From sequence record OQ990040: 64,000 nt of DNA; one strand, 5' to 3'. Source of the stretch: Escherichia phage SUT_E520. The translations under genes and the position numbers were made by a program. The stretch's first letter is position 1, and every line of letters begins with the position of its first letter. The notes beneath the pieces were generated by a model. It searched no databases and was not told the DNA's origin. It saw nothing but the letters and a program-made list of their open reading frames with translations. This document shows, piece by piece, positions 64 to 13,416 of the stretch.

Positions 64-2163
64 TTAGGTAAGGCGTTGAATTATAAGTTTAATATTTGGT
101 AAGCATGCTTTCATGCCAATTATATTGCTCATAGAGGATTCTAACCAAATAGAGATATTATTATTTCCATCATTTCTCATATAATATGTTAGAGTATAGT
201 AACCCGTTTGACCTACTGATCCCGGCAACCCAGATACCCAGTACGGAGTTGGAGTATACCCAGCAGCCTGTAATTTACAAGCATTTACTACAGTACCTTT
301 AATAGTAAAAAATGGTACATATTCTCCTGCAGGTAGGGACAATATTTGGTGAAGTTTTTTATCGATAGTATTGCCACCCATTCTGAACCTACTATCTCCA
401 TATTCGGCGCCTTTAGATAGCATTTCCGTAGGATTAAAGCAGCCAATACCTCCTGCAGACAACCATGTGTCATCCAGGAACTCCATAGTACATACAATTG
501 CGCCATTTCTACTACTATTAAGATCTAGTCCCACGGTGCCAACATGCACGGAACCATTACCCTGAAATACTATGTTACCAGATAGTACAGTACTTCCGCT
601 ACCACCTAGAAGTCTTAAAGGTAAAAGATTCTCACTCCAAACATCTCCATAATTGCTGCCTATTTTTGGAGGATTACTAGAAACATACCAAGATGCTGAA
701 GGTAAAAAGTTATAAATACTAACTACATTAGTATTTAAACCACCAACGTTACCACCNNNNNNNNNNNNNNNNNNNNNNNNNNNNNNNNNNNNNNNNNNNN
801 NNNNNNNNNNNNNNNNNNNNNNNNNNNNNNNNNNNNNNNNNNNNNNNNNNNNNNNNGAAACATACCAAGATGCTGAAGGTAAAAAGTTATAAATACTAAC
901 TACATTAGTATTTAAACCACCAACGTTACCACCTTTAATACTTGGTGCGTTATTGCTTTCCGTAGTGGGCAGCCCAAATGTTGCTATGCCAGAAACTCCA
1001 GTAGAGGGGGCACCCATACTCAAGTTACACCCAACATCACGAAAATCAGCTCTGCTACCTACATTAAAGTTTTTCTCAACAAAGTTAATAAACTTCCATG
1101 ACGTATTATTAACATTAACCCCTTTAATAATAAACTCTCTTGGGCTAAGTTTAATATCATTGCCAGTAAATAGCCCACTATCAATACTGTATCCTGAGCC
1201 ATTGTATACTAGATTGGTAACATACCAAGTAATTTTAGATGGATAAATACCGAGGTGCTCACTATATATACCTATAGGCCCATTAGCAGCATCATTCGGA
1301 TCACCCATACTTTCCCAATAAGCATAGTTAGTGGGATCAGCACGTGCGAAACCTACAGAGTACTTAGGAGCCGAGGGATTGCTAGGGTTATCTATAAAGT
1401 TAAGAGCCCCAGAACTAGAAGCACCGTGCACAGCTCCAGCAGTGGTATAGTTAGGCCCTTCCATACCGTAAAGAACTCTATTGCAAGATCTACCACGAAC
1501 ATATATGGCGTTAAATCCAAAGTTTCTAGCTCCGGGATGCCTAACGTAGTCGCTAGGGATAGTTATGGATCCTGAGCTGGGCACAATATATCCTGAACCA
1601 TCCCAGGCAGACTTATAAAGAGCGGCACCACCTAAGTACATTGCACTAGATGCAAATCCTCTACGCCCACTAAAGGCGCCAAACATATGCTGACATCCAG
1701 TACCATCTCTAAGCTTCTGGGGAATAGTTCCACTAGTTCCACTGTTAAAATAACCTACATCAAGGGATAGATCAGCACTAGCTGTTATTTGTGTTTTTAA
1801 GCCACCCTGGGACATGACCTGTGGATTTATAATTCCGTACGCCTTAGCACCTACCCCCATAGACATACCGGATAACATATGTCTAGAGCCATCTGAGAAC
1901 TCAATCTCCGTCAGCACAACTCTATTAGGATCATTATTATGTAACTGGGTAATTCTGCTAGGCATATCAGACCAGTAGTAATCTCCAGCACCTTGATCTA
2001 GCCTTAACCCTGTGGAGTGAGTTTCTGTTATGATAACATGGGGCATATCTGAATGGAATATGGTCTGAGAGTCAGGATTAATATGTTGATTAGTATCTCC
2101 GCCACTACCCCTGCGCAGAGAGAGTATAGATTTATTATTTAGCTTGCCAGCGAAAAAACTCAT
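64..2163 (-). CDS. oad: receptor-binding tail protein, pb5-like (FhuA-binding RBP); frame spans a 100-N scaffold gap with duplicated flanks, true length about 640 aa
   Basis: 699-aa ORF; N-terminus MSFFAGKLNNKSILSLRRGSGG and overall Gly/Ser/Asn-rich composition match my recollection of T5 pb5; divergently adjacent to an Llp-like lipoprotein gene as in T5; 33 X plus a repeated 27-aa stretch are a scaffolding artefact. Confidence 0.55.
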   Translation of the reverse strand: MSFFAGKLNNKSILSLRRGSGGDTNQHINPDSQTIFHSDMPHVIITETHSTGLRLDQGAGDYYWSDMPSRITQLHNNDPNRVVLTEIEFSDGSRHMLSGMSMGVGAKAYGIINPQVMSQGGLKTQITASADLSLDVGYFNSGTSGTIPQKLRDGTGCQHMFGAFSGRRGFASSAMYLGGAALYKSAWDGSGYIVPSSGSITIPSDYVRHPGARNFGFNAIYVRGRSCNRVLYGMEGPNYTTAGAVHGASSSGALNFIDNPSNPSAPKYSVGFARADPTNYAYWESMGDPNDAANGPIGIYSEHLGIYPSKITWYVTNLVYNGSGYSIDSGLFTGNDIKLSPREFIIKGVNVNNTSWKFINFVEKNFNVGSRADFRDVGCNLSMGAPSTGVSGIATFGLPTTESNNAPSIKGGNVGGLNTNVVSIYNFLPSASWYVXXXXXXXXXXXXXXXXXXXXXXXXXXXXXXXXXXGGNVGGLNTNVVSIYNFLPSASWYVSSNPPKIGSNYGDVWSENLLPLRLLGGSGSTVLSGNIVFQGNGSVHVGTVGLDLNSSRNGAIVCTMEFLDDTWLSAGGIGCFNPTEMLSKGAEYGDSRFRMGGNTIDKKLHQILSLPAGEYVPFFTIKGTVVNACKLQAAGYTPTPYWVSGLPGSVGQTGYYTLTYYMRNDGNNNISIWLESSMSNIIGMKACLPNIKLIIQRLT
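757..856. other. scaffold gap (100 N) with about 77-bp duplicated flanks (680-756 equals 857-933)
   Basis: run of n; identical sequence gaaacataccaagatgctgaagg...accaccaacgttaccacc on both sides. Confidence 0.95.
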
Positions 2164-2182
2164 AAGTTCTCCAAAAATTTAA

Positions 2183-2211
2183 TTGCCTATATTGCTATAA
2201 TTCTGTATAAT
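2183..2211 (+). promoter_or_regulatory. sigma70-type promoter upstream of llp (-35 TTGCCT, 17-bp spacer, -10 TATAAT)
   Basis: TTGCCT at 2183-2188, TATAAT at 2206-2211; AGGAGA RBS before ATG at 2243. Confidence 0.45.
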
Positions 2212-2242
2212 AGTATTATAAATTAAACATAGGAGAATGTAA

Positions 2243-2476
2243 ATGAAAAAATTATTTTTAGCTATGGCAGTGGTACTTCTTTCGGCTTGCTCTACTTTTG
2301 GTCCTAAAGATATTAAATGTGAGGCCTACTATGTACAAGATCATGTGAAATATAAGGCTAATGTTTTTGATAGGAAAGGGGATATGTTTTTGGTGTCACC
2401 AATTATGGCCTATGGGTCTTTTTGGGCTCCCGTAAGCTACTTTACTGAGGGGAATACATGTGAGGGAGTTTTCTAA
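2243..2476 (+). CDS. llp: lytic-conversion lipoprotein Llp-like (FhuA-blocking superinfection exclusion)
   Basis: 77 aa; signal peptide MKKLFLAMAVVLLSAC with lipobox LSAC; small Cys-containing mature part; divergent from oad as in T5. Confidence 0.65.
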   Translation: MKKLFLAMAVVLLSACSTFGPKDIKCEAYYVQDHVKYKANVFDRKGDMFLVSPIMAYGSFWAPVSYFTEGNTCEGVF

Positions 2477-2767
2477 GTAAAAACGACCTTAGTAACTATC
2501 ACCACTTAAGATAATCCTAGCGCAGAATTAGTCCAGGATGCCACACAAGACACTAGGGAAGGTATAATAAGAATATTTATACTAATCACTGCAATTGCTA
2601 GGGTATTCCAAATACCATACTCATAGGAGCATGAAAGATATGTCAAATAAAAGAAAGAACAGACGTGGAGAAGTGTACGAAGCGTGGGTTAATATTTACG
2701 GATTTGGTTTTGTATTATTCTTAATCTTCGTAGGTTTTTGGTTAGCAGCTATGGCGGGGTGGCTATA

Positions 2768-2923
2768 ATGGAATGGGTAATTATTGGCATATTCGTCTTA
2801 TTGATACTTCTCTTTGCAGGCTTACGTGTAATAGATACCTCTGTAACCCAAACAGAGATTAAATTAATGCAGTTGAGCAATAGATTATCTAGAATTGAAA
2901 CTTTATTAGAGGAGCGTAAATAA
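2768..2923 (+). CDS. small single-pass membrane protein, tandem paralog 1
   Basis: ATG at 2768; N-terminal TM helix MEWVIIGIFVLLILLFAGL followed by charged coiled-coil tail ending RIETLLEERK. Confidence 0.4.
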   Translation: MEWVIIGIFVLLILLFAGLRVIDTSVTQTEIKLMQLSNRLSRIETLLEERK

Positions 2924-3030
2924 TGGAATGGGTAATTATTGCACTACTGGGGATTGTGATTATTGGGCAATGTATCTTAGATAATCACTTAGCTAGAATC
3001 GAAACCTTACTATCGGAGAAACATAAATGA
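2923..3030 (+). CDS. small single-pass membrane protein, tandem paralog 2 (35 aa)
   Basis: ATG overlaps upstream stop (TAATG); MEWVIIALLGIVIIG...ARIETLLSEKHK shares N- and C-terminal motifs with paralog 1. Confidence 0.35.
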   Translation: MEWVIIALLGIVIIGQCILDNHLARIETLLSEKHK

Positions 3031-3221
3031 TGGAAGTGGCAATTACACTAATGGTAATATTAGTCTGGGTAATCCTCATTGTCTCTCGTATCGTGTATCT
3101 CCGCCTAAAAACTCTAGAAGCCCAGGTAAAACAACAACAAGTTATTCTAGAAAAGCTAGTACTACTGCAACGTTGTGATAGCACCCGTATTCTGCAAATT
3201 GAGAGGGAATTAGATGTTTAG
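3027..3221 (+). CDS. small single-pass membrane protein, tandem paralog 3
   Basis: ATGA start/stop overlap with paralog 2; TM helix then coiled-coil. Confidence 0.4.
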   Translation: MMEVAITLMVILVWVILIVSRIVYLRLKTLEAQVKQQQVILEKLVLLQRCDSTRILQIERELDV

Positions 3222-3459
3222 TATTATAATTGCTTTTATTATCGGGATACTCGCGGGAGTTTTCGGGACGACTGCGGCAATCAATAAGCATCGGGAATAT
3301 ATTGCGGGAGTGACGCGGGAGATTGCGGAAAGGGAGCGGAAGTTTGACGAGAAACGTGCGGAGTTTGAGCGAGAGTGGTCGGATGGATCTCGGGCGTCGC
3401 GGAAGAGATTCCGGGAGTTCAGACCAGAACACAGGTTTGATGACCCTTCTATGCGCTAA
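3214..3459 (+). CDS. small single-pass membrane protein, tandem paralog 4 (Arg/Glu-rich tail)
   Basis: overlaps paralog 3 stop; TM helix MFSIIIAFIIGILAGVFG then highly charged tail. Confidence 0.4.
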   Translation: MFSIIIAFIIGILAGVFGTTAAINKHREYIAGVTREIAERERKFDEKRAEFEREWSDGSRASRKRFREFRPEHRFDDPSMR

Positions 3460-3610
3460 TTCGACTTTTGTCAAATTTCATAAGATTACACATGGAGGTG
3501 TGTCCAGTGGCTCCCCAGATGAGAATGAGTCTCATTACCGCCCGGTACTTAGCAAGCTAATAGTCACGGCATGTTATCATTACACACCGTGACTATTTCA
3601 ACTTTAATTA

Positions 3611-4345
3611 TTACGCAACTTTTAATTTCTCAATATATTGTTGCGGGCTGCAACTATATTCTGCGCGTTCTTCCTCGGTCATACTTTCCCAACATAATTT
3701 CAAACGATCAGCTAGGAACTGATAATCATTATCATCATCGAGAGATTCATCGATAAAGGTTTCACCTATCAATGCAACGCCGATTGATAGAATATCGTTA
3801 ATGGCTTGCGCGTCCAGCGTTTTAAATCCGTATGATGCCGCCGCTGATAGCACGCCTTTATGATCGTCAATCATTGTAAAGTCAGCGTTTGGATATAATT
3901 GTTTAAATAATTCAAAATAATACGATTTATAAATGGCGTCTTTGCTGTGGTATATCTCGCTAACTTTATCAGCTTCAAAATATTTGTGTAGTGTATCGCG
4001 GGAAAATACACGGATATTACTATCACCACGACCGCGCAACCCTTGTTTACGCAAATAATAATAGTCCGACTTGCTCATTAGTCGAGCGGTGCAAATAATG
4101 TTTAAAGTATTTGCATCATTCATACATTGGCGCATATATTCAACCAATGGCAATAAAGTATCTTGCATTATTAAATGATGTTTGCAGGCTTCATTTTTAT
4201 ACTTATTTAAATCTAAATTGCCCTCACTATCAAAGCAAGGCGCTACACGATGGAAAGAATTAATGATAGTGCCGTCTAAATCCCAAATCATGACGCGGGA
4301 AATATGCGGGAAATTACGGGAAATATTCATAATAGCTTTATTCAT
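3611..4345 (-). CDS. dmp: HAD-family 5'-deoxyribonucleotidase, Dmp-like (pre-early)
   Basis: 244 aa; N-terminal HAD motif I IWDLDGTII; size and position match T5 dmp. Confidence 0.55.
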   Translation of the reverse strand: MNKAIMNISRNFPHISRVMIWDLDGTIINSFHRVAPCFDSEGNLDLNKYKNEACKHHLIMQDTLLPLVEYMRQCMNDANTLNIICTARLMSKSDYYYLRKQGLRGRGDSNIRVFSRDTLHKYFEADKVSEIYHSKDAIYKSYYFELFKQLYPNADFTMIDDHKGVLSAAASYGFKTLDAQAINDILSIGVALIGETFIDESLDDDNDYQFLADRLKLCWESMTEEERAEYSCSPQQYIEKLKVA

Positions 4346-4369
4346 TTGTTACGTTCTCCATTAAAGGGA

Positions 4370-4469
4370 NNNNNNNNNNNNNNNNNNNNNNNNNNNNNNN
4401 NNNNNNNNNNNNNNNNNNNNNNNNNNNNNNNNNNNNNNNNNNNNNNNNNNNNNNNNNNNNNNNNNNNNN
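4370..4469. other. scaffold gap (100 N)
   Basis: run of n. Confidence 0.95.
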
Positions 4470-4646
4470 GCGCGCGAATACCACAAAATAAAGCAAATAG
4501 GCAAGTAATTTTTTCATTTATATTTGCTTTGCCCTACTTGACAAAATCTAAAAAGCTCGTGGTAACGATAAACGGCTTATCCCCTTATGATGGGATGGCT
4601 AAAAACTTTATTGCGTTCTGGAGCGTTTTAGGCGCATTCTAGCCTT

Positions 4647-5223
4647 GTTGATAACTTATCCCCAAAAGCAAAAATGAAATTTTCCTAGTTATCCACTTGA
4701 CTTTTATTTTCCAGTGGATAACTACTTATTTTATGAAATAAATTAATTGACTTTTATTTGTTAGTATGCATCGGAAAGATAGCAGACTAATAATTGCTAG
4801 AATGATAATCATGCTGGTGGATTGTAACGACCTGAATTATTAGCAGACTATTAATCACGGAAAAATCTCATTAGCCAACTAACTATTTCATGATATATAA
4901 TATACATATAAATTAATGAGAAATAATAACTATAAGAAATCATCTAGCTAAGTGAGAACCACTATCATTTAAGTTATACACAAAGTTATCCACAGCACTT
5001 TTTGACTTGACACGATAGGCGGCGNNNNNNNNNNNNNNNNNNNNNNNNNNNNNNNNNNNNNNNNNNNNNNNNNNNNNNNNNNNNNNNNNNNNNNNNNNNN
5101 NNNNNNNNNNNNNNNNNNNNNNNNTATACAGTAGGATAAGCTGTTGATAAGTCTGTTGATAACGCCTCAAAATGGCTAGGATTTTGTCAAGTCAAATCGT
5201 GCTGTTGATAAGTCTGTGGATAA
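4647..5223. promoter_or_regulatory. cluster of DnaA-box-like 9-mers (TTATCCACA and one-mismatch variants), both orientations
   Basis: perfect TTATCCACA at 4986-4994 and its reverse complement at 5215-5223; near-consensus boxes at 4647-4664, 4689-4697, 4713-4721, 5142-5150, 5154-5162, 5203-5211. Confidence 0.45.
5025..5124. other. scaffold gap (100 N)
   Basis: run of n. Confidence 0.95.
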
Positions 5224-5224
5224 C
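5139..5224. repeat. two copies of a 25-bp direct repeat gctgttgataagtctgt(t/g)gataac, each carrying two DnaA-box-like motifs
   Basis: copies at 5139-5163 and 5200-5224. Confidence 0.6.
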
Positions 5225-5240
5225 TTAAATAATAGTGTTT

Positions 5241-5404
5241 CTCACTTCCATTCTTAAATACGAATCAGTATCATTCGCATTTCACTATCTAACTAATAAT
5301 CATTCCACTTTTTAAATGAGAATCGTTTCACTTCCTGAATAATTCTCACTTCCATTCTTAAATGCGAATTATTATCATTCACATTCCGCTTTTTAAATGA
5401 GAAT
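5241..5404. repeat. two families of direct repeats in an AT-rich noncoding segment
   Basis: ctcacttccattcttaaat(a/g)cgaat at 5241-5265 and 5345-5369; ctttttaaatgagaat at 5308-5323 and 5389-5404. Confidence 0.5.
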
Positions 5405-5433
5405 GATTCTCATTATCATTCGTATTCAGGCAA

Positions 5434-5451
5434 GCAGGGCAATTGCCCTGC
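5434..5451. repeat. 18-bp perfect palindrome gcagggcaattgccctgc
   Basis: self-complementary sequence directly upstream of the iteron array. Confidence 0.6.
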
Positions 5452-5456
5452 GCTTT

Positions 5457-6056
5457 TGTGCAAATCCGACATTTGCCCCCATGGATTACGCGTGGGCGTG
5501 TATGTGCGAATCCGACAATTTTTGGTAGTGTGCAAATCCGACCCGAAAAATTTTTATAATGTGCGGATCCGACAATGAATTTTCCTAAAAACTCCAGCAA
5601 TCCGATGCTGCGCATCAATCCTGTGGAATTAACTAGAATATGTGCAAATCCGACATGGGTTTATTTGTGCGAATCCGACAAGATTTTTGTGACTTCGATT
5701 GGAGAGTGTGTGATTGTAAGAGTTTGGGGAGAAGTTGAGAGATCGAGAAAAATTTGAGGGAACTGCGAGAGGGGCGCATGTTTGGTGCGTAGCACCTGAT
5801 TTGCGGGGATTTTGGGGAAGAGTTGAGAAGATTTGGGTTAATTTGAGATTAGTGCAGATAAAGTAAAATCTTATTAGCTAAATGGGGCAAAATAGCTTGA
5901 CAAGTGAAAGTTTCTGTGGCTCTAAAAACTCAGGCAATCATGGGCCTTCGGCCCGAAATAATGCTGCCATTTTCAAGAGATTATATGTTCCTAAAAACTT
6001 AGGCAATTGTGCAAATCCGACCATAAATTTCTAGAAACACAATGTGCAAATCCGAC
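5457..6056. repeat. iteron array: 8 copies of 14-bp TGTGC(A/G)(A/G)ATCCGAC
   Basis: copies at 5457, 5502, 5529, 5559, 5641, 5666, 6008 and 6043, irregular spacing, same orientation. Confidence 0.7.
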
Positions 6057-6100
6057 AGTAATTTCTGGAAATGTGTTTTCAAAAAATGTCTCCTAGAAAT

Positions 6101-6173
6101 AACCGCCCTCCCCATAACCGCCCTGTATTAAACCGCCTAGTATATGTTCCTAGAAACTTAGGAGAACCGCCCT
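6101..6173. repeat. four copies of AACCGCC(C)T
   Basis: copies at 6101, 6116, 6131 and 6165. Confidence 0.5.
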
Positions 6174-6593
6174 AGAAAGAGTGAGTATTTCGTGAGAACT
6201 CTGGAGTTTCTAGGAAAGTGTTGTGCCATCCTAGCAGATGAGCGGCAACAGGTGTATCATCTTGAATGTAAATTATGTGGTCAAAAGTTTTACTTTTATT
6301 TTAAATATAAGATCCCCCAGGGTTCTCATATAGAGCTTTGCCCCCGCCAGAAGGTCTCGTGATGTTTCTAGCAATTTATATTAAATTACTTATTAACTTG
6401 TCCTGTCGCTCCGTATCCTCCGCTACAAGTTAGTAATTTTAAATTACTGAACCACCACACCTTCTGTGTGGCAACTCTAAATGGTTAATTCTATTAACTC
6501 ATAGAGTTATGATAACATACATTTAGCTATCTGTCAACGAGAGTTTGTATTTGAGTCTCGGTACAGGTATTGTGCACCGAGACATGCAGGATC

Positions 6594-7478
6594 TTACAGT
6601 AACTCTTGGTATGCTTTTTGGTACGCCTCAGTGTCAGTAGGTGTATCTTTTGCTAGTGCAATTAGTTCATCTGTTATCTGAATGTTCGTATTATAACGTG
6701 TGTGGAACTCGTTAGGAATTTCTAGGTATCTATTGATGAATGCTGCAGCAAGCGGTGTGACTAAACCAATCTCTAGAGATAGCTTAACTTGTTTTTCGTA
6801 GATTAAATATTGAGAATCAGATGGGGTTGGTGGGGTTACATCAATTTTCTCGGGTTCTTTTTCTGGAAGCAATGGATTATTATATAATGCTTCATCTGGA
6901 AGCACAGATTTACGCTCTTTAAATATATAAGTTTCTAGATCCGATGCTTTAGATCCTGAGTATACCGCAAAGATGCTAGCTTTACCCTGTGATGCCCTAA
7001 CTGGTAAATAACTAGTAGGATAGCTTCTTAATGCATCATGGAATGGACTTCCTGAGTACTTGTATGTATCTCCATAGAGATCATCAATATTCATTCGTTC
7101 ATCTTCAAAGATGTGAAATGACTTAAATGGTGGAATGGTGAAGTATTCCATCTGTAACCCATAAACTAAGAAACGATGTGCATATGCACTGATTTTTAAG
7201 ACTGTGAATGCTTTTTCACCTTCTTTATGGGCGTTGCCTTTTGAAGTAACTTGGTAACGTTTACAAAACATCTCTACTAGACGTTTCTCATTAATACTAA
7301 GGGTGGAGTACAGTCGTCCACTTAATCCTATAAGTGCATCGAACATAAATGCTAGTTTATCTTTTTCTTCCTGGGTTAGTTCAGGAAATGGAAGTACTTT
7401 AGCATCAGGAACACTATTATTTTTCTTAGGTTTTGTTTTACCAGCGTTTTGTCTTAGTTTATCTTTAAAGTTATACAT
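6594..7478 (-). CDS. hypothetical protein (294 aa), first gene of the minus-strand early string
   Basis: long ORF, co-directional with neighbours. Confidence 0.5.
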   Translation of the reverse strand: MYNFKDKLRQNAGKTKPKKNNSVPDAKVLPFPELTQEEKDKLAFMFDALIGLSGRLYSTLSINEKRLVEMFCKRYQVTSKGNAHKEGEKAFTVLKISAYAHRFLVYGLQMEYFTIPPFKSFHIFEDERMNIDDLYGDTYKYSGSPFHDALRSYPTSYLPVRASQGKASIFAVYSGSKASDLETYIFKERKSVLPDEALYNNPLLPEKEPEKIDVTPPTPSDSQYLIYEKQVKLSLEIGLVTPLAAAFINRYLEIPNEFHTRYNTNIQITDELIALAKDTPTDTEAYQKAYQELL

Positions 7479-7555
7479 TATTATCTCCCATTTTTAAGGT
7501 CTGGATGACCTTCTTTTTATTTTAGAGCCTCCGTAGAGGCTCATGTATTAGAGGA

Positions 7556-8170
7556 TTAGCTACCTCTCTTATCTTCATTAATAGCAGCTCCCAACGCCTC
7601 CATAATAGCATCCTCTAAACTTCCATGTTTACCAGGATTATTAAAATGAATAGTACAAACAGAACTCCTAGAAACTCCAGCATCCGCAGGTGCTACGCTT
7701 CGCATATCAGATTCAAAAGCTTCTTGAGTATGTTTTAGCTGTACAGATGGGCCGTAATCTTCCACAAACTTATATGACTGCGTACTACTTACCACACCCC
7801 CACAAGGAATATTGTGCATATCCGACATTAATCTTTTATCGGAGTTATTCAGCATTGCGATTGGTCCGGACGGCCATGAATCTCGAATAGTTACTGGAGC
7901 ACTAGGACGGTTCACCTCAGTCTTCACGAGTTTATAACCAGCGTCTATTAGTGCATTAATCAGGTTATCAGCCGGGATGCGAGCCGTGCCAAAAATCTTA
8001 CGAGCATCTTCGAGCTTACTCTCAAGATCTTTACAGGCTTTAAGGTCGGTGTGTGCAAATGTTAGCTTCATAGATTTGAATTGTACAGTAGCAGTTAAAT
8101 CTTTAAAGCTGTAATCCCATGTGTTCAGTTCATGGTCTGGTACTACTTGAATAGGCTGTTGTGTAAACAT
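7556..8170 (-). CDS. hypothetical protein (204 aa)
   Basis: ORF in minus-strand gene string. Confidence 0.5.
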   Translation of the reverse strand: MFTQQPIQVVPDHELNTWDYSFKDLTATVQFKSMKLTFAHTDLKACKDLESKLEDARKIFGTARIPADNLINALIDAGYKLVKTEVNRPSAPVTIRDSWPSGPIAMLNNSDKRLMSDMHNIPCGGVVSSTQSYKFVEDYGPSVQLKHTQEAFESDMRSVAPADAGVSRSSVCTIHFNNPGKHGSLEDAIMEALGAAINEDKRGS

Positions 8171-8866: not shown

Positions 8867-9305
8867 TATTTATCTCCATTCTTAACTTTGAAAACTTATT
8901 ATACCAAACTATATGATTATCGTCAATTACAAATTTATGATAACATGCTGGTACGGTATAAGTTCCATAATCCGTGACACGCTGCACAACCTTGTGTGCG
9001 CACAGTCGACAACCATGCCCTTCTAAATGAGATCTAGCAGTTTGCCAGTAATAACCATCATGATCTGGACAATAGATCTCGACTTGCTGTTGCATTGTTT
9101 TATAATTTACATGCTCATATCCAAAGAAAGCTCCATGAACTGCAACAGCTTTCTTGATAAATATAATATTTAGTGCTTCTTGTTGAAAGTCGGGATGTAG
9201 CTGCTTAATCTTGGTTCTATTAATAGACCCATCCGATTTGATAAACCTATTTATTGGGAAGTTGTTAGCTTCCTCGATTAATAATTCATTTATTTTATCA
9301 CGCAT
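8859..9305 (-). CDS. hypothetical Cys/His-rich protein (148 aa), possible Zn-binding or HNH-like
   Basis: motifs CPDHDG, GHGCRLCAHK. Confidence 0.4.
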   Translation of the reverse strand: MRDKINELLIEEANNFPINRFIKSDGSINRTKIKQLHPDFQQEALNIIFIKKAVAVHGAFFGYEHVNYKTMQQQVEIYCPDHDGYYWQTARSHLEGHGCRLCAHKVVQRVTDYGTYTVPACYHKFVIDDNHIVWYNKFSKLRMEINSE

Positions 9306-9306
9306 G

Positions 9307-9525
9307 TTACTTATTAAATAACTTATTTAGTTTGCAGTATAAGTCTTTTGCTTGTTCTTCGGATAGCCAAATAATATTGGGGGATGTTCCTCCACCTTTT
9401 TGAGCTAATCGTACTGTTTTATTTTTGCTTATTTCACAGGTTACAGCAGATTGATCTTCCGTAGGGCTATATCTAGCCTTTAGGTAGTTATCTAATGTTT
9501 TCATACTAAGTTCCTTGAAACACAA
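9307..9525 (-). CDS. hypothetical protein (72 aa)
   Basis: ORF in gene string. Confidence 0.35.
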   Translation of the reverse strand: MCFKELSMKTLDNYLKARYSPTEDQSAVTCEISKNKTVRLAQKGGGTSPNIIWLSEEQAKDLYCKLNKLFNK

Positions 9526-9558
9526 AAGGTCAGAACAATTAAGTCCTGGCCTCTAGAA

Positions 9559-9930
9559 TTAGTGGAGTTGTTTACCACTTCTTAAAATAGTGGCCGTTTC
9601 CATAAGATTTAACGTTATATCACGCTTTTTGATTTGTTTGTCCAGTTCATCGGTACGTTTGCCAATGTAAGCGTTAATAGCCATATTCATAGCTGAGGCG
9701 AGATCTTCTTTGGTTATCTCTTCATTATCTAAAGCTAATTTAGCTAAAGAATCGAAAGTACTAGAAAGTCCTATAAGATCTGAGGTTTCACTGGCCAAAA
9801 TAGGGTTAATATTATCTATTGTTACTTCCAACATAGAGTTAACAATATCTTCTCCGTCTACTAGACCAGATTCAATATTACTCTCCCATTCCTTCATCTG
9901 CTCCAGCAATGGATTTTTCTTTTCTGTCAT
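9559..9930 (-). CDS. hypothetical acidic protein (start uncertain; internal Met chosen to limit overlap)
   Basis: ORF 9559-9996 overlaps upstream gene by 119 nt; internal Met at 9930 is more plausible. Confidence 0.35.
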   Translation of the reverse strand: MTEKKNPLLEQMKEWESNIESGLVDGEDIVNSMLEVTIDNINPILASETSDLIGLSSTFDSLAKLALDNEEITKEDLASAMNMAINAYIGKRTDELDKQIKKRDITLNLMETATILRSGKQLH

Positions 9931-10339
9931 GGTAGAGGTTTCCTGTGTCAGTTGGTAAGAAAGCCGATTGAGCTTTAGGTGGATGTTGTTTAGCAATCCA
10001 GTTAAGAATCAGTACACGACTAGGAACAATATCGGTATTATACCAGAAATCATGAACCCATTGACGAGCATCCTCAAACTTACCAAATTTATACGCTTTC
10101 TTGAACAATTCAAACCCAAAACAATCTGGTGTAAAATCTACTTCACGATATTGAATTACTTTAGAACCAGTTAAATCTTGGATAGCTGCATTAATTTCTG
10201 TATGGGAGAATTTTGTTTCGTGAAACTTATTAAAGAATCGGTAGTTGAAACGTCCGTTCGTTTCGACAAATAACTGGATAAAGAGATCGTTAAATTGGTT
10301 ATCAAACCAGTAATTCTGTAGTTGTTGTAGTGCTGTCAT
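9878..10339 (-). CDS. hypothetical protein (153 aa)
   Basis: ORF in gene string. Confidence 0.45.
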   Translation of the reverse strand: MTALQQLQNYWFDNQFNDLFIQLFVETNGRFNYRFFNKFHETKFSHTEINAAIQDLTGSKVIQYREVDFTPDCFGFELFKKAYKFGKFEDARQWVHDFWYNTDIVPSRVLILNWIAKQHPPKAQSAFLPTDTGNLYHDRKEKSIAGADEGMGE

Positions 10340-10536
10340 TTACGAACTCCGTTAATTGCCACGATGATGCCTTCGTACATAAAAGGAAGTAGTTTAGAAG
10401 TGTAGAAGATATTTTCCGTTATTCCTAGATGTCGAAAAAGTATATTAAATAATGCTGTTAGAAATACAATCTGAGGCAGTAATACAAAATACTCAGTTAC
10501 AATCTTTGGTGCCTGATAAACAAGACGTTTTATCAT
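10336..10536 (-). CDS. small membrane protein (66 aa)
   Basis: hydrophobic segment LLPQIVFLTALFNILF. Confidence 0.3.
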   Translation of the reverse strand: MIKRLVYQAPKIVTEYFVLLPQIVFLTALFNILFRHLGITENIFYTSKLLPFMYEGIIVAINGVRK

Positions 10537-10635
10537 TGTTTTTAAGTCTCCTTATTACTTTGGCCTGCTCCACAATAATAAAAACTGCGAGCACTAATAG
10601 TGCTAGTAGCCCCGCAGTAATTGGTACTAAATCAA

Positions 10636-10962
10636 TCATGGGAGACGCCATACGTAATTAGCTGTCTGTAGGATCTTAGGTGTGTCATCATGATACATTA
10701 CTACAGACTTTGGTGAATAACTATCAGCTAGTTCTTTACGAATCATTTCACACTCTTCACCAGTATCAATATTTTTAACTATCACTTTCATATTAAGTGG
10801 TGTTAATACAGAAAGTGGTTTCCAAGAGTCCTCAATCTCAATTCCTACCTTTTTCTCAATTATCATGAGAACTTCCAATGTATCATCTGGAATACTAATA
10901 TTATTATTCACAAACTGTAATATCTCATGTAAGGTATTTAATTCATTAAAATTAAGCTTCAT
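10636..10962 (-). CDS. hypothetical protein (108 aa)
   Basis: ORF in gene string. Confidence 0.4.
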   Translation of the reverse strand: MKLNFNELNTLHEILQFVNNNISIPDDTLEVLMIIEKKVGIEIEDSWKPLSVLTPLNMKVIVKNIDTGEECEMIRKELADSYSPKSVVMYHDDTPKILQTANYVWRLP

Positions 10963-11197
10963 CTTTAATAATATCCTCTACCATATCACAAGACTGTTGC
11001 AATTCATCAGCAATACGTTTAACATCGGTTTTTGTTACTTTACCGATTAGCATTACCAGTAACATAGAAAAGATAATAAAAGGTACTGGAATAACAAATA
11101 ATGCTACCTTAGCTACATTCTTTGGTGTCCATGTATGGTACTTAGTAACTAGTACACCAACCACAACTAAATAAAATGCGAGAATAAACATCATCAT
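10952..11197 (-). CDS. membrane protein (81 aa, two TM segments)
   Basis: MMMFILAFYLVVVGVLV and VIPVPFIIFSMLLVMLIG. Confidence 0.4.
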   Translation of the reverse strand: MMMFILAFYLVVVGVLVTKYHTWTPKNVAKVALFVIPVPFIIFSMLLVMLIGKVTKTDVKRIADELQQSCDMVEDIIKDEA

Positions 11198-11475
11198 TTT
11201 TTAATCTCCGTAATTATCTGTGCACGCATTACTTTATTAGGTAGTTTTGTATTCCCAGCTATTGCTTCAATATTGTTTAGTTTTTCTTTTAGAATATCTG
11301 AGCGTCTTTGCGTTAGCTCAATATCTTGTTCTTGTTCTATTAAGCGACAGTGGAGTCCACTATTAGTAATACGCATACTCTCCATATTTTTTCGTATGCT
11401 TACAATACCAATAACCCCACCAATCGCTGCTAGTGTCATAAGCACTAGCAGTCCAATAAGAATTTCTATAATCAT
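11194..11475 (-). CDS. membrane-anchored coiled-coil protein (93 aa)
   Basis: N-terminal TM MIIEILIGLLVLMTLAAIGGVIGIV. Confidence 0.4.
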   Translation of the reverse strand: MIIEILIGLLVLMTLAAIGGVIGIVSIRKNMESMRITNSGLHCRLIEQEQDIELTQRRSDILKEKLNNIEAIAGNTKLPNKVMRAQIITEIKK

Positions 11476-11897
11476 TTGTCCGTTACTCCATTACTACATT
11501 TAATGTAGGGGCTTACAGTTTCGTAGAATTTAATCTTGACTAAAGATCCGTTAACTGCTCTACAAAATCTCTTACCCTCTTCAATTTGAAGTTTGGCCTC
11601 AATTGAATCTTCCATTTTGTAGGCATCTACTACTTCAACCCCAGAATCTTTAGATAAGGCTTCATCTAGTTTTATTTGCCTGAGCACAAGGTCTACTTCT
11701 GCAAGCATTATTTTATGTTTTGATAGTAACTTATTGCTTTCTGCCCTAGCTTTAATTTCTGGACTGATATGTTCCTCTATTACAACTTCCTTCACTTCGT
11801 CACGTTGATTAAGTATATAGTCGGTAACACCAATCGATATTGCTAAAGAAAGCAGCGAGTTAACTGCTATAGTATAGAAAAATTGGCCATTAGTCAT
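11472..11897 (-). CDS. membrane-anchored protein (141 aa)
   Basis: N-terminal TM then soluble domain. Confidence 0.4.
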   Translation of the reverse strand: MTNGQFFYTIAVNSLLSLAISIGVTDYILNQRDEVKEVVIEEHISPEIKARAESNKLLSKHKIMLAEVDLVLRQIKLDEALSKDSGVEVVDAYKMEDSIEAKLQIEEGKRFCRAVNGSLVKIKFYETVSPYIKCSNGVTDK

Positions 11898-12166
11898 TAT
11901 TTCTTACCTTTCAGTTGCTTAACTTCACGCTCAAAAGATGCTGCACGACGTTCGGCAGTTGCCTGATGCTCTTTCGCAAAACGTGCTTCCTGTTTTGCGA
12001 GGTTGAACGCCATAGCATTCTTATTCAGAGAATCATACATCTTTTTCATTGCCGGAATAGACATCTTCATGAGCTGACCCTCAAAACCCTGCATGTCGAG
12101 GAGAATTGCCAGAACGTTAGCCATTTCATTTTTAGTCATGTTTTCCATTAGAATTTCCTCTCTCAT
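11897..12166 (-). CDS. hypothetical protein (89 aa)
   Basis: ORF directly downstream of a T5-type promoter at 12181-12209. Confidence 0.45.
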   Translation of the reverse strand: MREEILMENMTKNEMANVLAILLDMQGFEGQLMKMSIPAMKKMYDSLNKNAMAFNLAKQEARFAKEHQATAERRAASFEREVKQLKGKK

Positions 12167-12825: not shown

Positions 12826-13416
12826 TCAGACATTTATATCACCACGCAATACAGCAGCTACGTCTTCCCCTATTTGTAATACCTCGCCGGTAGTACAATT
12901 AACTACTCTATCGTAACTAGTAAACTTACCAGACACAATATCTTCTAGTGGAATTGGAGTTTTACTCATTTCAAATGAGACATTGATATAACGTGGATCA
13001 CGTAGAGAAGTAGTATGTACGTGTCCGTGAATATTTAGTTTGCCACGAAGTTCATTAGGGTGCAAAGGGCAGTGAGATAGCCAAAACTTTTTGCCACCTC
13101 CAGTCTGTTTACCTAGAGCCTGAATATCGTCATAAACTTCCGCCAAGTCCCTAATGCTCAGTCCCTGACGTTCTGCATCATGATTACCCATAATCAGTTG
13201 ATTAGGAACATTGTGGATAACCGACTTTAATTTAGCTAGACCTTCACGACCTACTGCAATATCTCCTAGCAAAATAAGTTTTGTTCGTTTACCAATATGC
13301 TTGGACAAAGTATCTAGAATATACTCATCGTGCTCTTTCATGTTCTTAAACCACGGACGGAAACGTAACGCTCCAGGGTGGTCTAGGTGCAAGTCTGACC
13401 AGAATTTAACTTTCAT
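12826..13416 (-). CDS. calcineurin-like metallophosphoesterase
   Basis: motifs DLHLDH, GDIAVG, GNHD, GHVH. Confidence 0.6.
   Translation of the reverse strand: MKVKFWSDLHLDHPGALRFRPWFKNMKEHDEYILDTLSKHIGKRTKLILLGDIAVGREGLAKLKSVIHNVPNQLIMGNHDAERQGLSIRDLAEVYDDIQALGKQTGGGKKFWLSHCPLHPNELRGKLNIHGHVHTTSLRDPRYINVSFEMSKTPIPLEDIVSGKFTSYDRVVNCTTGEVLQIGEDVAAVLRGDINV

What the first reader, a model, noticed from the sequence alone, without database searches (positions are those of the whole stretch)
4647..5224. DnaA-box cluster next to the Dmp-like gene
At least two perfect TTATCCACA boxes and six one-mismatch boxes lie within about 580 bp, including an inverted pair 15 bp apart and two boxes inside each copy of a 25-bp direct repeat. 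That density is typical of an origin or a DnaA titration/regulatory site. In a pre-early terminal-repeat-like region it could recruit or sequester host DnaA, or mark a transfer-pause/replication element.
Basis: partly seen in the sequence, partly recalled or inferred. Interest (0 to 1): 0.55.

Follow-up and report, generated by a model that had tools for sequence, protein, structure and literature searches.

The report
Known T5 injection-stop DnaA-box modules
The DnaA-box cluster is real and far above chance, but it is the already-described pair of conserved repeat modules in the first-entering DNA of T5-like phages, brought artificially close together by gaps in the assembly; a near-perfect LexA box beside each module appears not to have been reported.

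Summary
There are 2 perfect and 8 one-mismatch TTATCCACA boxes in 4646-5223, against about 0.2 expected (P ~7e-15).

The geometry is an artefact. The window is 100% identical to Escherichia phage SUT_E1520, and its 100-N runs are scaffold gaps. Gap 4370-4469 hides 4.26 kb, including A1 and A2. Gap 5025-5124 hides 3.79 kb. So the "580-bp cluster next to dmp" is really two regions 3.8 kb apart and about 5 kb from dmp.

These regions are the published T5 modules IRC-spacer-IRD and IRD'-spacer-IRC'. The second lies in the annotated injection stop signal (iss). Their DnaA boxes were noted in 1987 and compared across 25 phages by Davison (2020).

My comparison of 59 unique modules shows the conservation profile expected of DnaA sites (TTWTNCACA). 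Five distant Demerecviridae (A1 31-66% identical) also carry clusters of such boxes. No origin hallmarks are present.

The function (DnaA tethering or pausing of first-step-transfer DNA) remains an untested hypothesis.

One apparently new point: a near-consensus LexA box sits next to the outermost DnaA box of each module in almost all T5-likes and near DnaA boxes in the distant relatives. Both copies are hidden by the gap in this window.

Verdict: already known, low interest.

The parts
4370..4469 (.). Scaffold gap (100 N). It stands for 4262 bp in the identical phage SUT_E1520: homologues of T5.002 and T5.003, A1, T5.005, A2 and T5.007-009. dmp (3611-4345, minus strand) is therefore not adjacent to the boxes.
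4646..4664 (.). Head-to-head box pair TGTTGATAA-c-TTATCCCCA (boxes 4646-4654 minus, 4656-4664 plus). It is part of an 'extra quartet' that is not among the eight published boxes.
   Evidence: The quartet was detected in 16 of the 41 T5-like loci scanned (several are the two terminal-repeat copies of one phage), and it is absent from T5 itself.
4689..4721 (.). Inverted box pair TTATCCACT / AGTGGATAA with a 15-bp spacer. The left box abuts a TTGACT hexamer. This is the second half of the lineage-specific quartet.
4950..5024 (+). Visible left part of module A (IRC-spacer-IRD of T5 Repeat Region 2). It holds the flank AGTGAGAA..CACTATCATTTAAG, box 1 at 4974-4982 (TTATACACA), box 2 at 4986-4994 (TTATCCACA), and the spacer motif TTGACTTGACA at 5002-5012, whose TTGACA part is near-invariant. 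Boxes 3 and 4 and the LexA-like box are lost in the gap.
5025..5124 (.). Scaffold gap (100 N). It stands for 3794 bp in SUT_E1520: the rest of module A (TTTTACACA, TTATCCACA, TACTGTATATTTATACAGGG), the rightward pre-early operon (T5.011-017 homologues), and the left edge of module B.
5125..5135 (.). Right half (TATACAGTAGG) of the LexA-like palindrome TACTGTATATTTATACAGTA that flanks module B. The left half is in the gap.
5140..5224 (-). Module B (IRD'-spacer-IRC' of T5 Repeat Region 3, inside the annotated iss). It has four same-oriented boxes in two pairs with 3-bp spacers: 5142, 5154, 5203 and 5215 (the last perfect). The pairs start 61 bp apart. The spacer holds TGTCAAGTCAA at 5186-5196. 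Module B is the inverted copy of module A.
5225..5922 (.). Remainder of the iss / Repeat Region 3 up to the inferred right end of the terminal repeat. It contains the ~67-bp DRE repeats (about 5239-5305 and 5343-5409), the palindrome TGAGAATGATTCTCA (5398-5412), a GC hairpin (5434-5451) and GTGCRAATCCGACA (DRD-type) repeats, of which seven copies are readable between about 5459 and 5690.
   Evidence: The terminal-repeat end is placed by homology to the annotated LTR of MM-1.

Best explanation
The cluster is the known pair of ~131-bp inverted modules of T5-like first-step-transfer (FST) DNA. Module A (IRC-spacer-IRD) lies between the divergent pre-early transcription units. Module B (IRD'-spacer-IRC') lies just downstream of the rightward pre-early operon, about 0.7 kb inside the right end of the terminal repeat, within the annotated injection stop signal. 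This lineage also carries an extra quartet of boxes.

Each module has four same-oriented DnaA boxes in two pairs (3-bp spacers, pairs 61 bp apart). In module B the outer boxes are mostly perfect and the inner ones are weaker TTATYAACA variants. A near-consensus LexA box follows the outermost box.

Most likely mechanism (inferred, not shown): as the left end of the genome enters the cell, host DnaA, and probably LexA, load on these modules. They build a nucleoprotein complex on the last conserved element to enter before the pause. That complex takes part in cis in holding or handling the FST DNA during the pause (membrane-proximal tethering, as in Davison's model). It does not act in replication initiation.

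Shown here: identity with the T5 modules, statistical enrichment, and family-wide conservation with a DnaA-type profile. Inferred: actual DnaA or LexA binding. Speculative: that this binding causes the injection stop.
For: Identity: the window is 100% identical to SUT_E1520 and about 88% identical to T5 across the iss. T5 annotates 9140-10149 as 'injection stop signal'. A 132-nt inverted repeat at 79% complementarity, with arms 3728 nt apart, was recovered in SUT_E1520.

Literature: the boxes were noted in 1987 and compared across 25 phages, as eight boxes in pairs spaced by 3 bp.

Enrichment: 10 observed against about 0.2 expected, P = 7e-15.

Conservation: both modules are present, inverted and 1.8-4.1 kb apart in 39 of 40 IMG/VR loci. 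In 59 unique modules, box positions 1, 2, 4, 7, 8 and 9 are nearly invariant. Position 3 varies A/T, position 5 takes any base, and position 6 varies C/A. The 3-bp spacer of pair 1 and the 52-bp spacer vary freely. This matches the DnaA consensus TTWTNCACA; 116 of 234 boxes are perfect and 141 fit the strict consensus.

Distant relatives: the same host motif survives where little else is recognisably conserved. My1, Proteus phage 2, Vibrio D342, Aeromonas AhSzw-1 and Vibrio GRLPWR (A1 31-66% identical) each carry DnaA-type boxes upstream of A2, clustered in all but Proteus phage 2's proximal site. They have 2-6 perfect TTATCCACA per locus, against about 0.14 expected per 18 kb. A phage-encoded binder would be expected to drift with its site, whereas a universal host protein would not.

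Position: module B lies about 0.7-0.9 kb inside the terminal-repeat end in MM-1/T5 and in My1.

Host dependence: in vitro FhuA-triggered ejection does not stop at 8%, so a cell factor is needed. A minor FST band near 5.8 kb coincides with module A. Both points come from the literature quoted.
Against: No binding or genetic test exists. As of 2026 the mechanism is still described as poorly understood.

About 40% of boxes (for example TTATCAACA and TTATTAACA) fall outside the strict consensus, and their affinity for DnaA is unknown.

Physically, a protein bound to DNA that is already inside the cell should not by itself block pressure-driven entry of the rest (my inference). The modules could therefore serve another FST function, while the true stop lies elsewhere in Repeat Region 3 (the DRE or DRD repeats, or the nick).

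The IRC part of module A is truncated or carries small deletions in several T5-like phage types, and one type lacks module A altogether. The extra quartet is absent from T5. So not every box is essential.
Confidence: 0.6

Rival explanations
1. The modules are a transcriptional insulator or operator. Two inverted DnaA/LexA-bound modules bracket the rightward pre-early operon. They act as roadblocks or repressors that confine or time pre-early transcription, for example by stopping read-through toward the DNA still in the tail, rather than controlling DNA transfer.
For: Module A sits between divergent pre-early promoters, and module B sits right after the operon's predicted terminator (T5 features; SUT_E1520 genes). 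A near-invariant TTGACA lies in each spacer, and sigma70-like hexamers overlap the boxes (TTGATA-17-AATAAT at 5205-5233). LexA boxes are classically operators, and DnaA-box complexes are known to block RNA polymerase (established knowledge from my memory of asnC/mioC and dnaA autoregulation; not checked here).
Against: The -10 positions opposite the invariant TTGACA are not conserved. The promoter scan is only 14 hits against 7.8 +/- 2.8 expected, in AT-rich DNA. The experimentally characterised promoter of gene 011 lies about 230 bp away from module A. Repressing genes that must fire immediately on entry seems counter-productive.
Confidence: 0.2
2. The repeats are sites for a phage protein (A2, annotated as a DNA-binding protein, or a virion-borne protein). 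Their resemblance to DnaA and LexA boxes is incidental.
For: A2 is annotated as DNA-binding and is required, together with A1, for second-step transfer. The GAC spacer between boxes 3 and 4 and several flanks (AGTGAGAA, GGTTATCC) are also conserved, so the conserved unit is larger than the 9-mers.
Against: The exact host consensus TTATCCACA and a 15-19/20 match to the LexA consensus persist in phages whose A1 is only 31-41% identical (A2 identity was not measured for these phages). Variation within the boxes falls on the positions DnaA tolerates. Two independent coincidences with abundant host DNA-binding proteins are improbable.
Confidence: 0.1
3. The cluster is a replication origin or a DnaA titration sink.
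For: There are many same-oriented DnaA boxes, with strong outer and weak inner sites in module B, which recalls oriC. An AT-rich stretch (78-80% AT) lies just left of module A.
Against: There is no 13-mer unwinding element, no GATC cluster and no conserved IHF site. Box spacing is 3 bp. According to the literature cited, T5 origins were mapped near the genome centre and replication genes arrive only with the second step. Eleven to twelve boxes per repeat cannot titrate the cellular DnaA pool early in infection, and host DNA is destroyed within minutes anyway.
Confidence: 0.07
4. The cluster is a chance product of AT-rich, repeat-rich DNA.
For: The region is AT-rich (GC 0.25-0.30). Several boxes are copies of one another through direct and inverted repeats, so they are not independent events.
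Against: Local dinucleotide shuffles give a mean of 0.22 and a maximum of 3, against 10 observed. The boxes are conserved across the family while the adjacent spacers vary.
Confidence: 0.01

Closest known systems
T5 injection stop signal region: IRD'-spacer-IRC' (Repeat Region 3) and IRC-spacer-IRD (Repeat Region 2). Sources: Heusterspreute et al. 1987, as cited; the NC_005859 annotation; Davison 2020, bioRxiv 10.1101/866236.
   Same: The sequence is homologous: 88% identical to T5 over 5125-7652, and 100% identical to SUT_E1520. It occupies the same position in the terminal repeat. It has the same four boxes per module in pairs spaced by 3 bp, the same 52-bp spacer and the same inverted arrangement.
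   Different: This lineage has all eight module boxes, whereas T5 has seven. It also has an extra quartet of box-like sites 260-330 bp left of module A that T5 lacks. In the window itself half of module A is missing in a scaffold gap.
E. coli oriC
   Same: Arrays of same-oriented DnaA boxes, with high-affinity sites at the edges and weaker sites inside. The two arrays have opposite orientation.
   Different: The arrays are 2-4 kb apart rather than contiguous. Spacers are 3 bp, which from memory compares with 2 bp in oriC. There are no 13-mer DUE, GATC or IHF/Fis signatures. No replication role is expected.
datA and DARS1/2: chromosomal DnaA-box clusters that modulate DnaA without initiating replication
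   Same: They are non-origin clusters of DnaA boxes that act by binding DnaA.
   Different: From memory, datA and DARS depend on an IHF site and on specific box orientations. No conserved IHF core is present here, and the biological context (entering phage DNA) is unrelated.
LexA operators exploited by mobile elements (SOS boxes of colicin plasmids, CTXphi, GIL01)
   Same: The palindrome beside each module matches the gammaproteobacterial LexA consensus TACTGTATATATATACAGTA at 15-19 of 20 positions, with CTGT-N8-ACAG intact.
   Different: The phage is strictly lytic, and the site lies in non-coding DNA with no clear overlapping promoter. No LexA role has been described for T5 in the library I could search.

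Membership tests
T5-type FST/iss repeat modules (IRC-spacer-IRD and IRD'-spacer-IRC') | Sequence homology to the T5 modules, at the same position in the pre-early terminal repeat. | tested here: met
   blastn gives window 5125-7652 = T5 9420-11992 (88%) and window 4950-5012 = reverse complement of T5 9480-9542. T5 annotates 9140-10149 as iss.
T5-type FST/iss repeat modules (IRC-spacer-IRD and IRD'-spacer-IRC') | Two ~131-bp copies in inverted orientation, separated by the rightward pre-early operon. | tested here: met
   In the identical SUT_E1520 there are 132-nt arms at 6981-7112 and 10841-10972, 79% complementary. The same arrangement is present in 39 of 40 related loci. In the window only 75 bp of module A is visible.
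T5-type FST/iss repeat modules (IRC-spacer-IRD and IRD'-spacer-IRC') | Four DnaA or DnaA-like boxes per module, in pairs separated by 3 bp, with a 52-bp spacer between the arms. | tested here: met
   Box starts are 5142/5154 and 5203/5215 in the window, and 7005/7017 and 7066/7078 in L003.
T5-type FST/iss repeat modules (IRC-spacer-IRD and IRD'-spacer-IRC') | Cis-acting stop of DNA transfer at about 8% of the genome. | not testable with these tools
   This needs infection experiments. It has not been shown for the boxes even in T5.
DnaA-binding site array (functional DnaA boxes) | 9-mers fitting TTWTNCACA, enriched above chance. | tested here: met
   10 observed against 0.18-0.22 expected. Across 59 modules, 141 of 234 homologous boxes fit the strict consensus and 116 are perfect.
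DnaA-binding site array (functional DnaA boxes) | Purifying selection on the positions DnaA reads, with freedom at the positions it tolerates. | tested here: met
   The information profile and position counts show positions 1, 2, 4, 7, 8 and 9 at 93% or more. Position 3 is A/T and position 5 is any base. Position 6 is C or A, a departure from the strict consensus.
DnaA-binding site array (functional DnaA boxes) | Physical binding of DnaA. | not testable with these tools
   No EMSA, footprint or ChIP data were found in the literature searched.
DnaA-dependent replication origin (oriC-like) | AT-rich unwinding element with 13-mer repeats next to the boxes. | tested here: not met
   GATCTNTTNTTTT does not occur at up to 2 mismatches near either module. 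An AT-rich stretch exists left of module A, but it coincides with promoter DNA.
DnaA-dependent replication origin (oriC-like) | GATC clustering and IHF/Fis sites. | tested here: not met
   There is no GATC in L003 6480-7400 and only 3 in 10560-11700. The single IHF core match overlaps a box and is not conserved in other phages.
DnaA-dependent replication origin (oriC-like) | Replication initiates there. | not testable with these tools
   The literature cited places T5 origins near the genome centre.
LexA operator (gammaproteobacterial SOS box) | CTGT-N8-ACAG palindrome with an AT-rich centre, close to TACTGTATATATATACAGTA. | tested here: met
   L003 10839-10858 is TACTGTATATTTATACAGTA (19/20) and L003 7095-7114 is TACTGTATATTTATACAGGG (17/20). 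Across 656 kb of loci (which include duplicate terminal-repeat copies), 69 of 81 CTGT-N8-ACAG hits lie within 15 bp of a DnaA box. In the window itself only the half-site at 5125-5135 is visible, and no complete site exists there.
LexA operator (gammaproteobacterial SOS box) | Overlaps a promoter that it represses, and binds LexA. | not testable with these tools
   No convincing overlapping promoter was found. Binding has not been tested anywhere I could find.

The most novel reading that the evidence does not exclude
Each T5-type module is a composite landing pad for two abundant host DNA-binding proteins: four DnaA boxes and, next to the outermost box, a near-consensus LexA (SOS) box. This DnaA-plus-LexA combination is conserved in Demerecviridae infecting Escherichia, Salmonella, Klebsiella, Pectobacterium, Proteus, Vibrio and Aeromonas. 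The LexA component is not mentioned in the T5 iss literature I could search. If LexA does load there, the two-step DNA transfer, or the fate of FST DNA, of a strictly lytic phage would be coupled to the host's SOS and replication-initiator status. For example, the pause or pre-early programme would differ in SOS-induced cells, where LexA has been cleaved.
Probability: 0.35. Interest if true: 0.55.

Novelty: already known. Interest (0 to 1): 0.2.

Why it matters
How T5 stops DNA transfer at 8% and then restarts it has been open since the 1960s. The DnaA boxes are the only concrete host-factor hypothesis for the stop, and that hypothesis is untested. This finding does not add to it: the boxes were described in 1987 and 2020.

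What this re-analysis adds is modest but usable:
- The boxes evolve like real DnaA sites, and clusters of such boxes recur across the five distant members of the family examined. This strengthens the case for doing the binding experiment.
- A consensus LexA box travels with them, giving a second, easily testable host factor (lexA(Def) and lexA(Ind-) hosts are available).
- The 100-N runs in this window are scaffold gaps that hide about 4 kb each. Any first-stage reading of distances or gene adjacency across them is unreliable.

Tried and rejected
**Origin hallmarks.** I scanned the intact relative for 13-mer DUE, GATC clustering and the IHF core. None was present or conserved.

**Known RNA families.** Rfam, run at a permissive E-value on 4300-6600, gave only a spurious miRNA hit on the inverted repeat, far below its gathering score.

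**Promoter and terminator scan.** It returned 14 promoter-like sites against 7.8 +/- 2.8 expected in AT-rich DNA. A few overlap boxes, but the -10 elements are not conserved across the alignment. I do not claim promoters.

**Covariation test for LexA.** I used phages of alphaproteobacteria that carry A1 homologues (Rhizobium RHEph08, Rhodobacter RcSimone-Hastad). These are not T5-like: A1 sits among replication genes, there is no iss-like non-coding region, and there are no DnaA or LexA modules of either host type. The test was uninformative.

**Literature on tests of the DnaA model or a LexA link to T5.** I found no experimental test and no mention of LexA ((failed query)). Davison's 2015 review and the 1987 Gene paper are not in the searchable library, so a mention there cannot be excluded.

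**A real deletion.** I considered that the window's phage truly lacks A1/A2 and the right operon, and rejected it. All three N-runs are exactly 100 bases, one has overlapping flanks, and A1/A2 are essential for the phage.

**Fuzzy anchors.** The anchors mis-placed the reference point in many loci. I used only the absolute patterns from that call.

Full report
**1. What is in the sequence**

Allowing one mismatch, TTATCCACA matches 33 times in the 64-kb window. Ten of these fall between 4646 and 5223:
- 4646(-), 4656(+), 4689(+), 4713(-), 4974(+), 4986(+, perfect)
- 5142(-), 5154(-), 5203(-), 5215(-, perfect)

Against the window's own background (0.36 hits per kb) the 485 non-N bases should hold 0.18 hits, giving Poisson P = 7e-15. 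In 2000 local dinucleotide-preserving shuffles the mean was 0.22 and the maximum 3. Outside the cluster the window is at background. The density is therefore real.

**2. The geometry is an assembly artefact**

The window contains three runs of exactly 100 N: 757-856, 4370-4469 and 5025-5124. Escherichia phage SUT_E1520 (OQ885479, locus L003) is 100% identical to every visible stretch from 2132 to 7830.

| N-run | What it stands for in SUT_E1520 |
|---|---|
| 4370-4469 | 4262 bp: homologues of T5.002 and T5.003, A1, T5.005, A2 and T5.007-009 |
| 5025-5124 | 3794 bp: the rest of one repeat module and the rightward pre-early operon |
| 757-856 | Nothing missing; its flanks overlap by 77 bp |

The overlap at 757-856 also explains why the receptor-binding-protein ORF reads 699 aa instead of 640 aa. 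The N-runs are thus scaffold gaps of arbitrary size.

The "580-bp cluster next to dmp" is in reality two regions 3.8 kb apart, the nearer one about 4.4 kb from dmp. In the intact relative, 13.5 kb hold 11 one-mismatch boxes, all in two places: seven in L003 6677-7086 and four in 10867-10948.

**3. Identity**

The window is a Tequintavirus with its terminal repeat collapsed: a pb5-like receptor-binding gene, llp, then dmp. By homology to T5 (NC_005859) and to MM-1:
- Window 4470-5024 is the non-coding region between the divergent pre-early transcription units (T5 Repeat Regions 1 and 2).
- Window 5125 to about 5850 lies within the T5 feature "injection stop signal (iss)" (T5 9140-10149).
- The right end of the terminal repeat falls near window 5922.

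The repeat finder on the intact relative recovers a 132-nt inverted repeat (L003 6981-7112 and 10841-10972, 79% complementary, 3728 nt apart). These are the IRC-spacer-IRD and IRD'-spacer-IRC' elements of the T5 literature.

Each module carries four boxes in one orientation, in two pairs with 3-bp spacers. The pairs start 61 bp apart and are separated by a spacer containing TTGACTTGACA.

**4. This is already described**

Davison's preprint "Phage T5 two-step injection" (bioRxiv 10.1101/866236) makes the following points:
- The DnaA box and three variants in IRD'-spacer-IRC' were reported in 1987.
- Across 25 T5-like phages almost all carry eight boxes, two in each of IRC, IRD, IRD' and IRC', always in pairs 3 bp apart with a 52-bp spacer.
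- He proposes that membrane-bound DnaA binds these boxes and thereby stops first-step transfer, with A1/A2 later releasing the block.
- He argues against a replication role, because T5 origins map near the genome centre and the replication genes are not yet in the cell.

Later papers still call the mechanism poorly understood and merely list DnaA boxes among the iss features (PNAS 2026, PMC13250531; bioRxiv 2026.04.02.716235). I found no experimental test.

**5. What comparison adds**

*Close relatives.* Using A2 as a handle I fetched 40 IMG/VR loci. In 39 of them both modules are present, inverted, and 1.8-4.1 kb apart. I aligned 59 unique modules and looked at information content per column and box position counts:
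- Box positions 1, 2, 4, 7, 8 and 9 are nearly invariant.
- Position 3 toggles A/T, position 5 takes any base, and position 6 is C or A.
- The 3-bp spacer of the first pair and most of the 52-bp spacer vary freely.
- 116 of 234 boxes are perfect and 141 fit the strict consensus.

Apart from position 6, this is the profile of the DnaA consensus TTWTNCACA. In module B the outer boxes are mostly perfect and the inner ones are TTATYAACA, so strong sites flank weak ones.

*Distant relatives.* I examined Demerecviridae whose A1 is only 31-66% identical: Pectobacterium My1, Proteus phage 2, Vibrio D342, Aeromonas AhSzw-1 and Vibrio GRLPWR. The non-coding DNA upstream of A2 and further out again carries DnaA-type boxes, 2-6 of them perfect per locus. 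About 0.14 perfect boxes would be expected per 18 kb, and the two groups are often in opposite orientations. In My1, module B again lies about 0.9 kb inside the annotated repeat end.

Survival of the exact host motif where the phage proteins have diverged this far argues for a universal host protein as the binder. It argues against a co-evolving phage protein. It does not show what the binding is for.

**6. The extra quartet**

The four boxes at 4646-4721 are not among the eight published ones. They form a head-to-head pair (TGTTGATAA-c-TTATCCCCA) and a 13-bp inverted repeat with a 15-bp spacer. They were detected in 16 of the 41 T5-like loci scanned, several of which are the two terminal-repeat copies of one phage. 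T5 has unrelated sequence at the homologous place. They are therefore lineage-specific and presumably dispensable.

**7. Not an origin**

The intact relative has no 13-mer unwinding element near either module and no GATC cluster. Its only IHF core match overlaps a variant box that is not conserved. Rfam finds nothing real. The promoter-like hits that overlap boxes are not backed by conserved -10 elements.

**8. A LexA box beside the DnaA boxes**

Next to the outermost box of each module, with about 8-10 bp between them, lies a palindrome that Davison lists only among the palindromes of the region:
- L003 10839-10858: TACTGTATATTTATACAGTA
- L003 7095-7114: TACTGTATATTTATACAGGG

The E. coli LexA consensus (established knowledge) is TACTGTATATATATACAGTA, with CTGT-N8-ACAG as its core. 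The two sites match it at 19/20 and 17/20.

Across the 656 kb of loci held (which include duplicate terminal-repeat copies), CTGT-N8-ACAG occurs 81 times. Sixty-nine of these lie within 15 bp of a DnaA box, and all but one random-looking hit score 15-19/20 against the consensus. By chance the pattern is expected 0.66 times per 64 kb. In the alignment the palindrome arms are nearly invariant, and only the two central bases flip between AA and TT.

A similar palindrome is found in the distant relatives. It lies within about 10-20 bp of a DnaA box in My1, Proteus phage 2, Vibrio D342 and GRLPWR, and 22 bp and 99 bp from the nearest box in AhSzw-1. A few further copies in these phages lie hundreds of bp from any box.

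Davison's text mentions neither LexA nor SOS. No paper in the library links T5 or T5-like phages to a LexA box.

In the window both copies are hidden by the 5025-5124 gap except for the half-site TATACAGTAGG at 5125-5135. I regard LexA occupancy of such a site on entering DNA as physically likely. Its function is unknown.

**9. Mechanism and confidence**

- Near-certain: these are the T5-family FST/iss modules.
- Likely (about 0.7, inferred from conservation): host DnaA binds them.
- Uncertain (about 0.25-0.3): that this binding is what stops DNA transfer.

On the last point, a protein bound to DNA already inside the cell does not obviously block pressure-driven entry of the rest. Other elements of Repeat Region 3 (the DRE and DRD repeats, and the 7.9% nick annotated at T5 9748/9749) are equally well placed.

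The main rival is a transcriptional insulator or operator role for two host-factor-bound modules that bracket the rightward pre-early operon. A phage-encoded binder, an origin or titration role, and chance are progressively less likely, for the reasons given in the rival list.

**10. Verdict**

Interest is low for the finding as given. The LexA box that travels with the DnaA boxes is the one point that may be new and is cheap to test.

Noticed in passing
window 5125-5135 (visible half-site); complete sites at L003 7095-7114 and L003 10839-10858: A near-consensus LexA (SOS) box (TACTGTATATTTATACAGTA, 19/20 to the E. coli consensus) lies next to the outermost DnaA box of each 131-bp module. Its arms are nearly invariant in 59 unique T5-like modules. 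A similar palindrome occurs in My1, Proteus phage 2, Vibrio D342, AhSzw-1 and GRLPWR, usually within 10-20 bp of a DnaA box. It is not mentioned in the T5 iss literature I could search.
   Followed up: partly
window 757-856, 4370-4469, 5025-5124: All three N-runs are exactly 100 bases and are scaffold gaps of arbitrary size. Compared with the 100%-identical SUT_E1520 they hide 4262 bp (including A1 and A2) and 3794 bp, and one has 77-bp overlapping flanks. Distances and gene adjacency read across them are unreliable.
   Followed up: yes
window 64-2163 (minus strand): The 699-aa ORF is an artefact. It is the 640-aa receptor-binding protein (pb5-like), lengthened by the 100-N run plus a 77-bp duplicated overlap (177 bases = 59 codons).
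   Followed up: yes
window 4646-4721: The extra quartet of DnaA-like boxes (a head-to-head pair and a 13-bp inverted repeat with a 15-bp spacer abutting a TTGACT hexamer) was detected in 16 of the 41 T5-like loci scanned. In T5 itself it is replaced by unrelated sequence. It is not among the eight published boxes.
   Followed up: partly
window 5398-5412; also L003 10625-10646 and 11118-11139: The perfect 7-1-7 palindrome TGAGAATGATTCTCA lies inside the DRE-type repeats of the iss, with degenerate copies nearby. From memory it resembles the Fur-family 7-1-7 box TGATAATnATTATCA, with one change per half-site. That would be curious for a phage whose receptor is the Fur-regulated FhuA. This was not tested and may be coincidence.
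   Followed up: no
window 5002-5012 and 5186-5196: A near-invariant TTGACA (five of its six columns fully invariant; part of TTGACTTGACA in this phage) sits at a fixed position in the otherwise variable 52-bp spacer of both modules in all 59 aligned sequences. It looks like a -35 hexamer, but no conserved -10 follows it.
   Followed up: partly
window about 5459-5690 and 5434-5451: There is a series of GTGCRAATCCGACA repeats (the DRD repeats of the T5 literature; seven copies readable in the window) and a GC-rich hairpin GCAGGGCAATTGCCCTGC followed by GCTTTT. The hairpin lies at about the position homologous to T5's annotated major single-strand interruption (9748/9749).
   Followed up: no
L049 (Rhizobium phage RHEph08) and L050 (Rhodobacter phage RcSimone-Hastad): A1-type 'DNA transfer protein' homologues (about 40% identity) occur in non-T5-like phages, among replication genes and next to a dmp-like phosphatase, with no iss-like non-coding region. 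A1 is therefore not restricted to two-step-injecting phages.
   Followed up: partly
window 13212-13220 (minus strand): This is the only other perfect TTATCCACA in the window. It is isolated and consistent with the chance expectation (0.78 per 64 kb).
   Followed up: no
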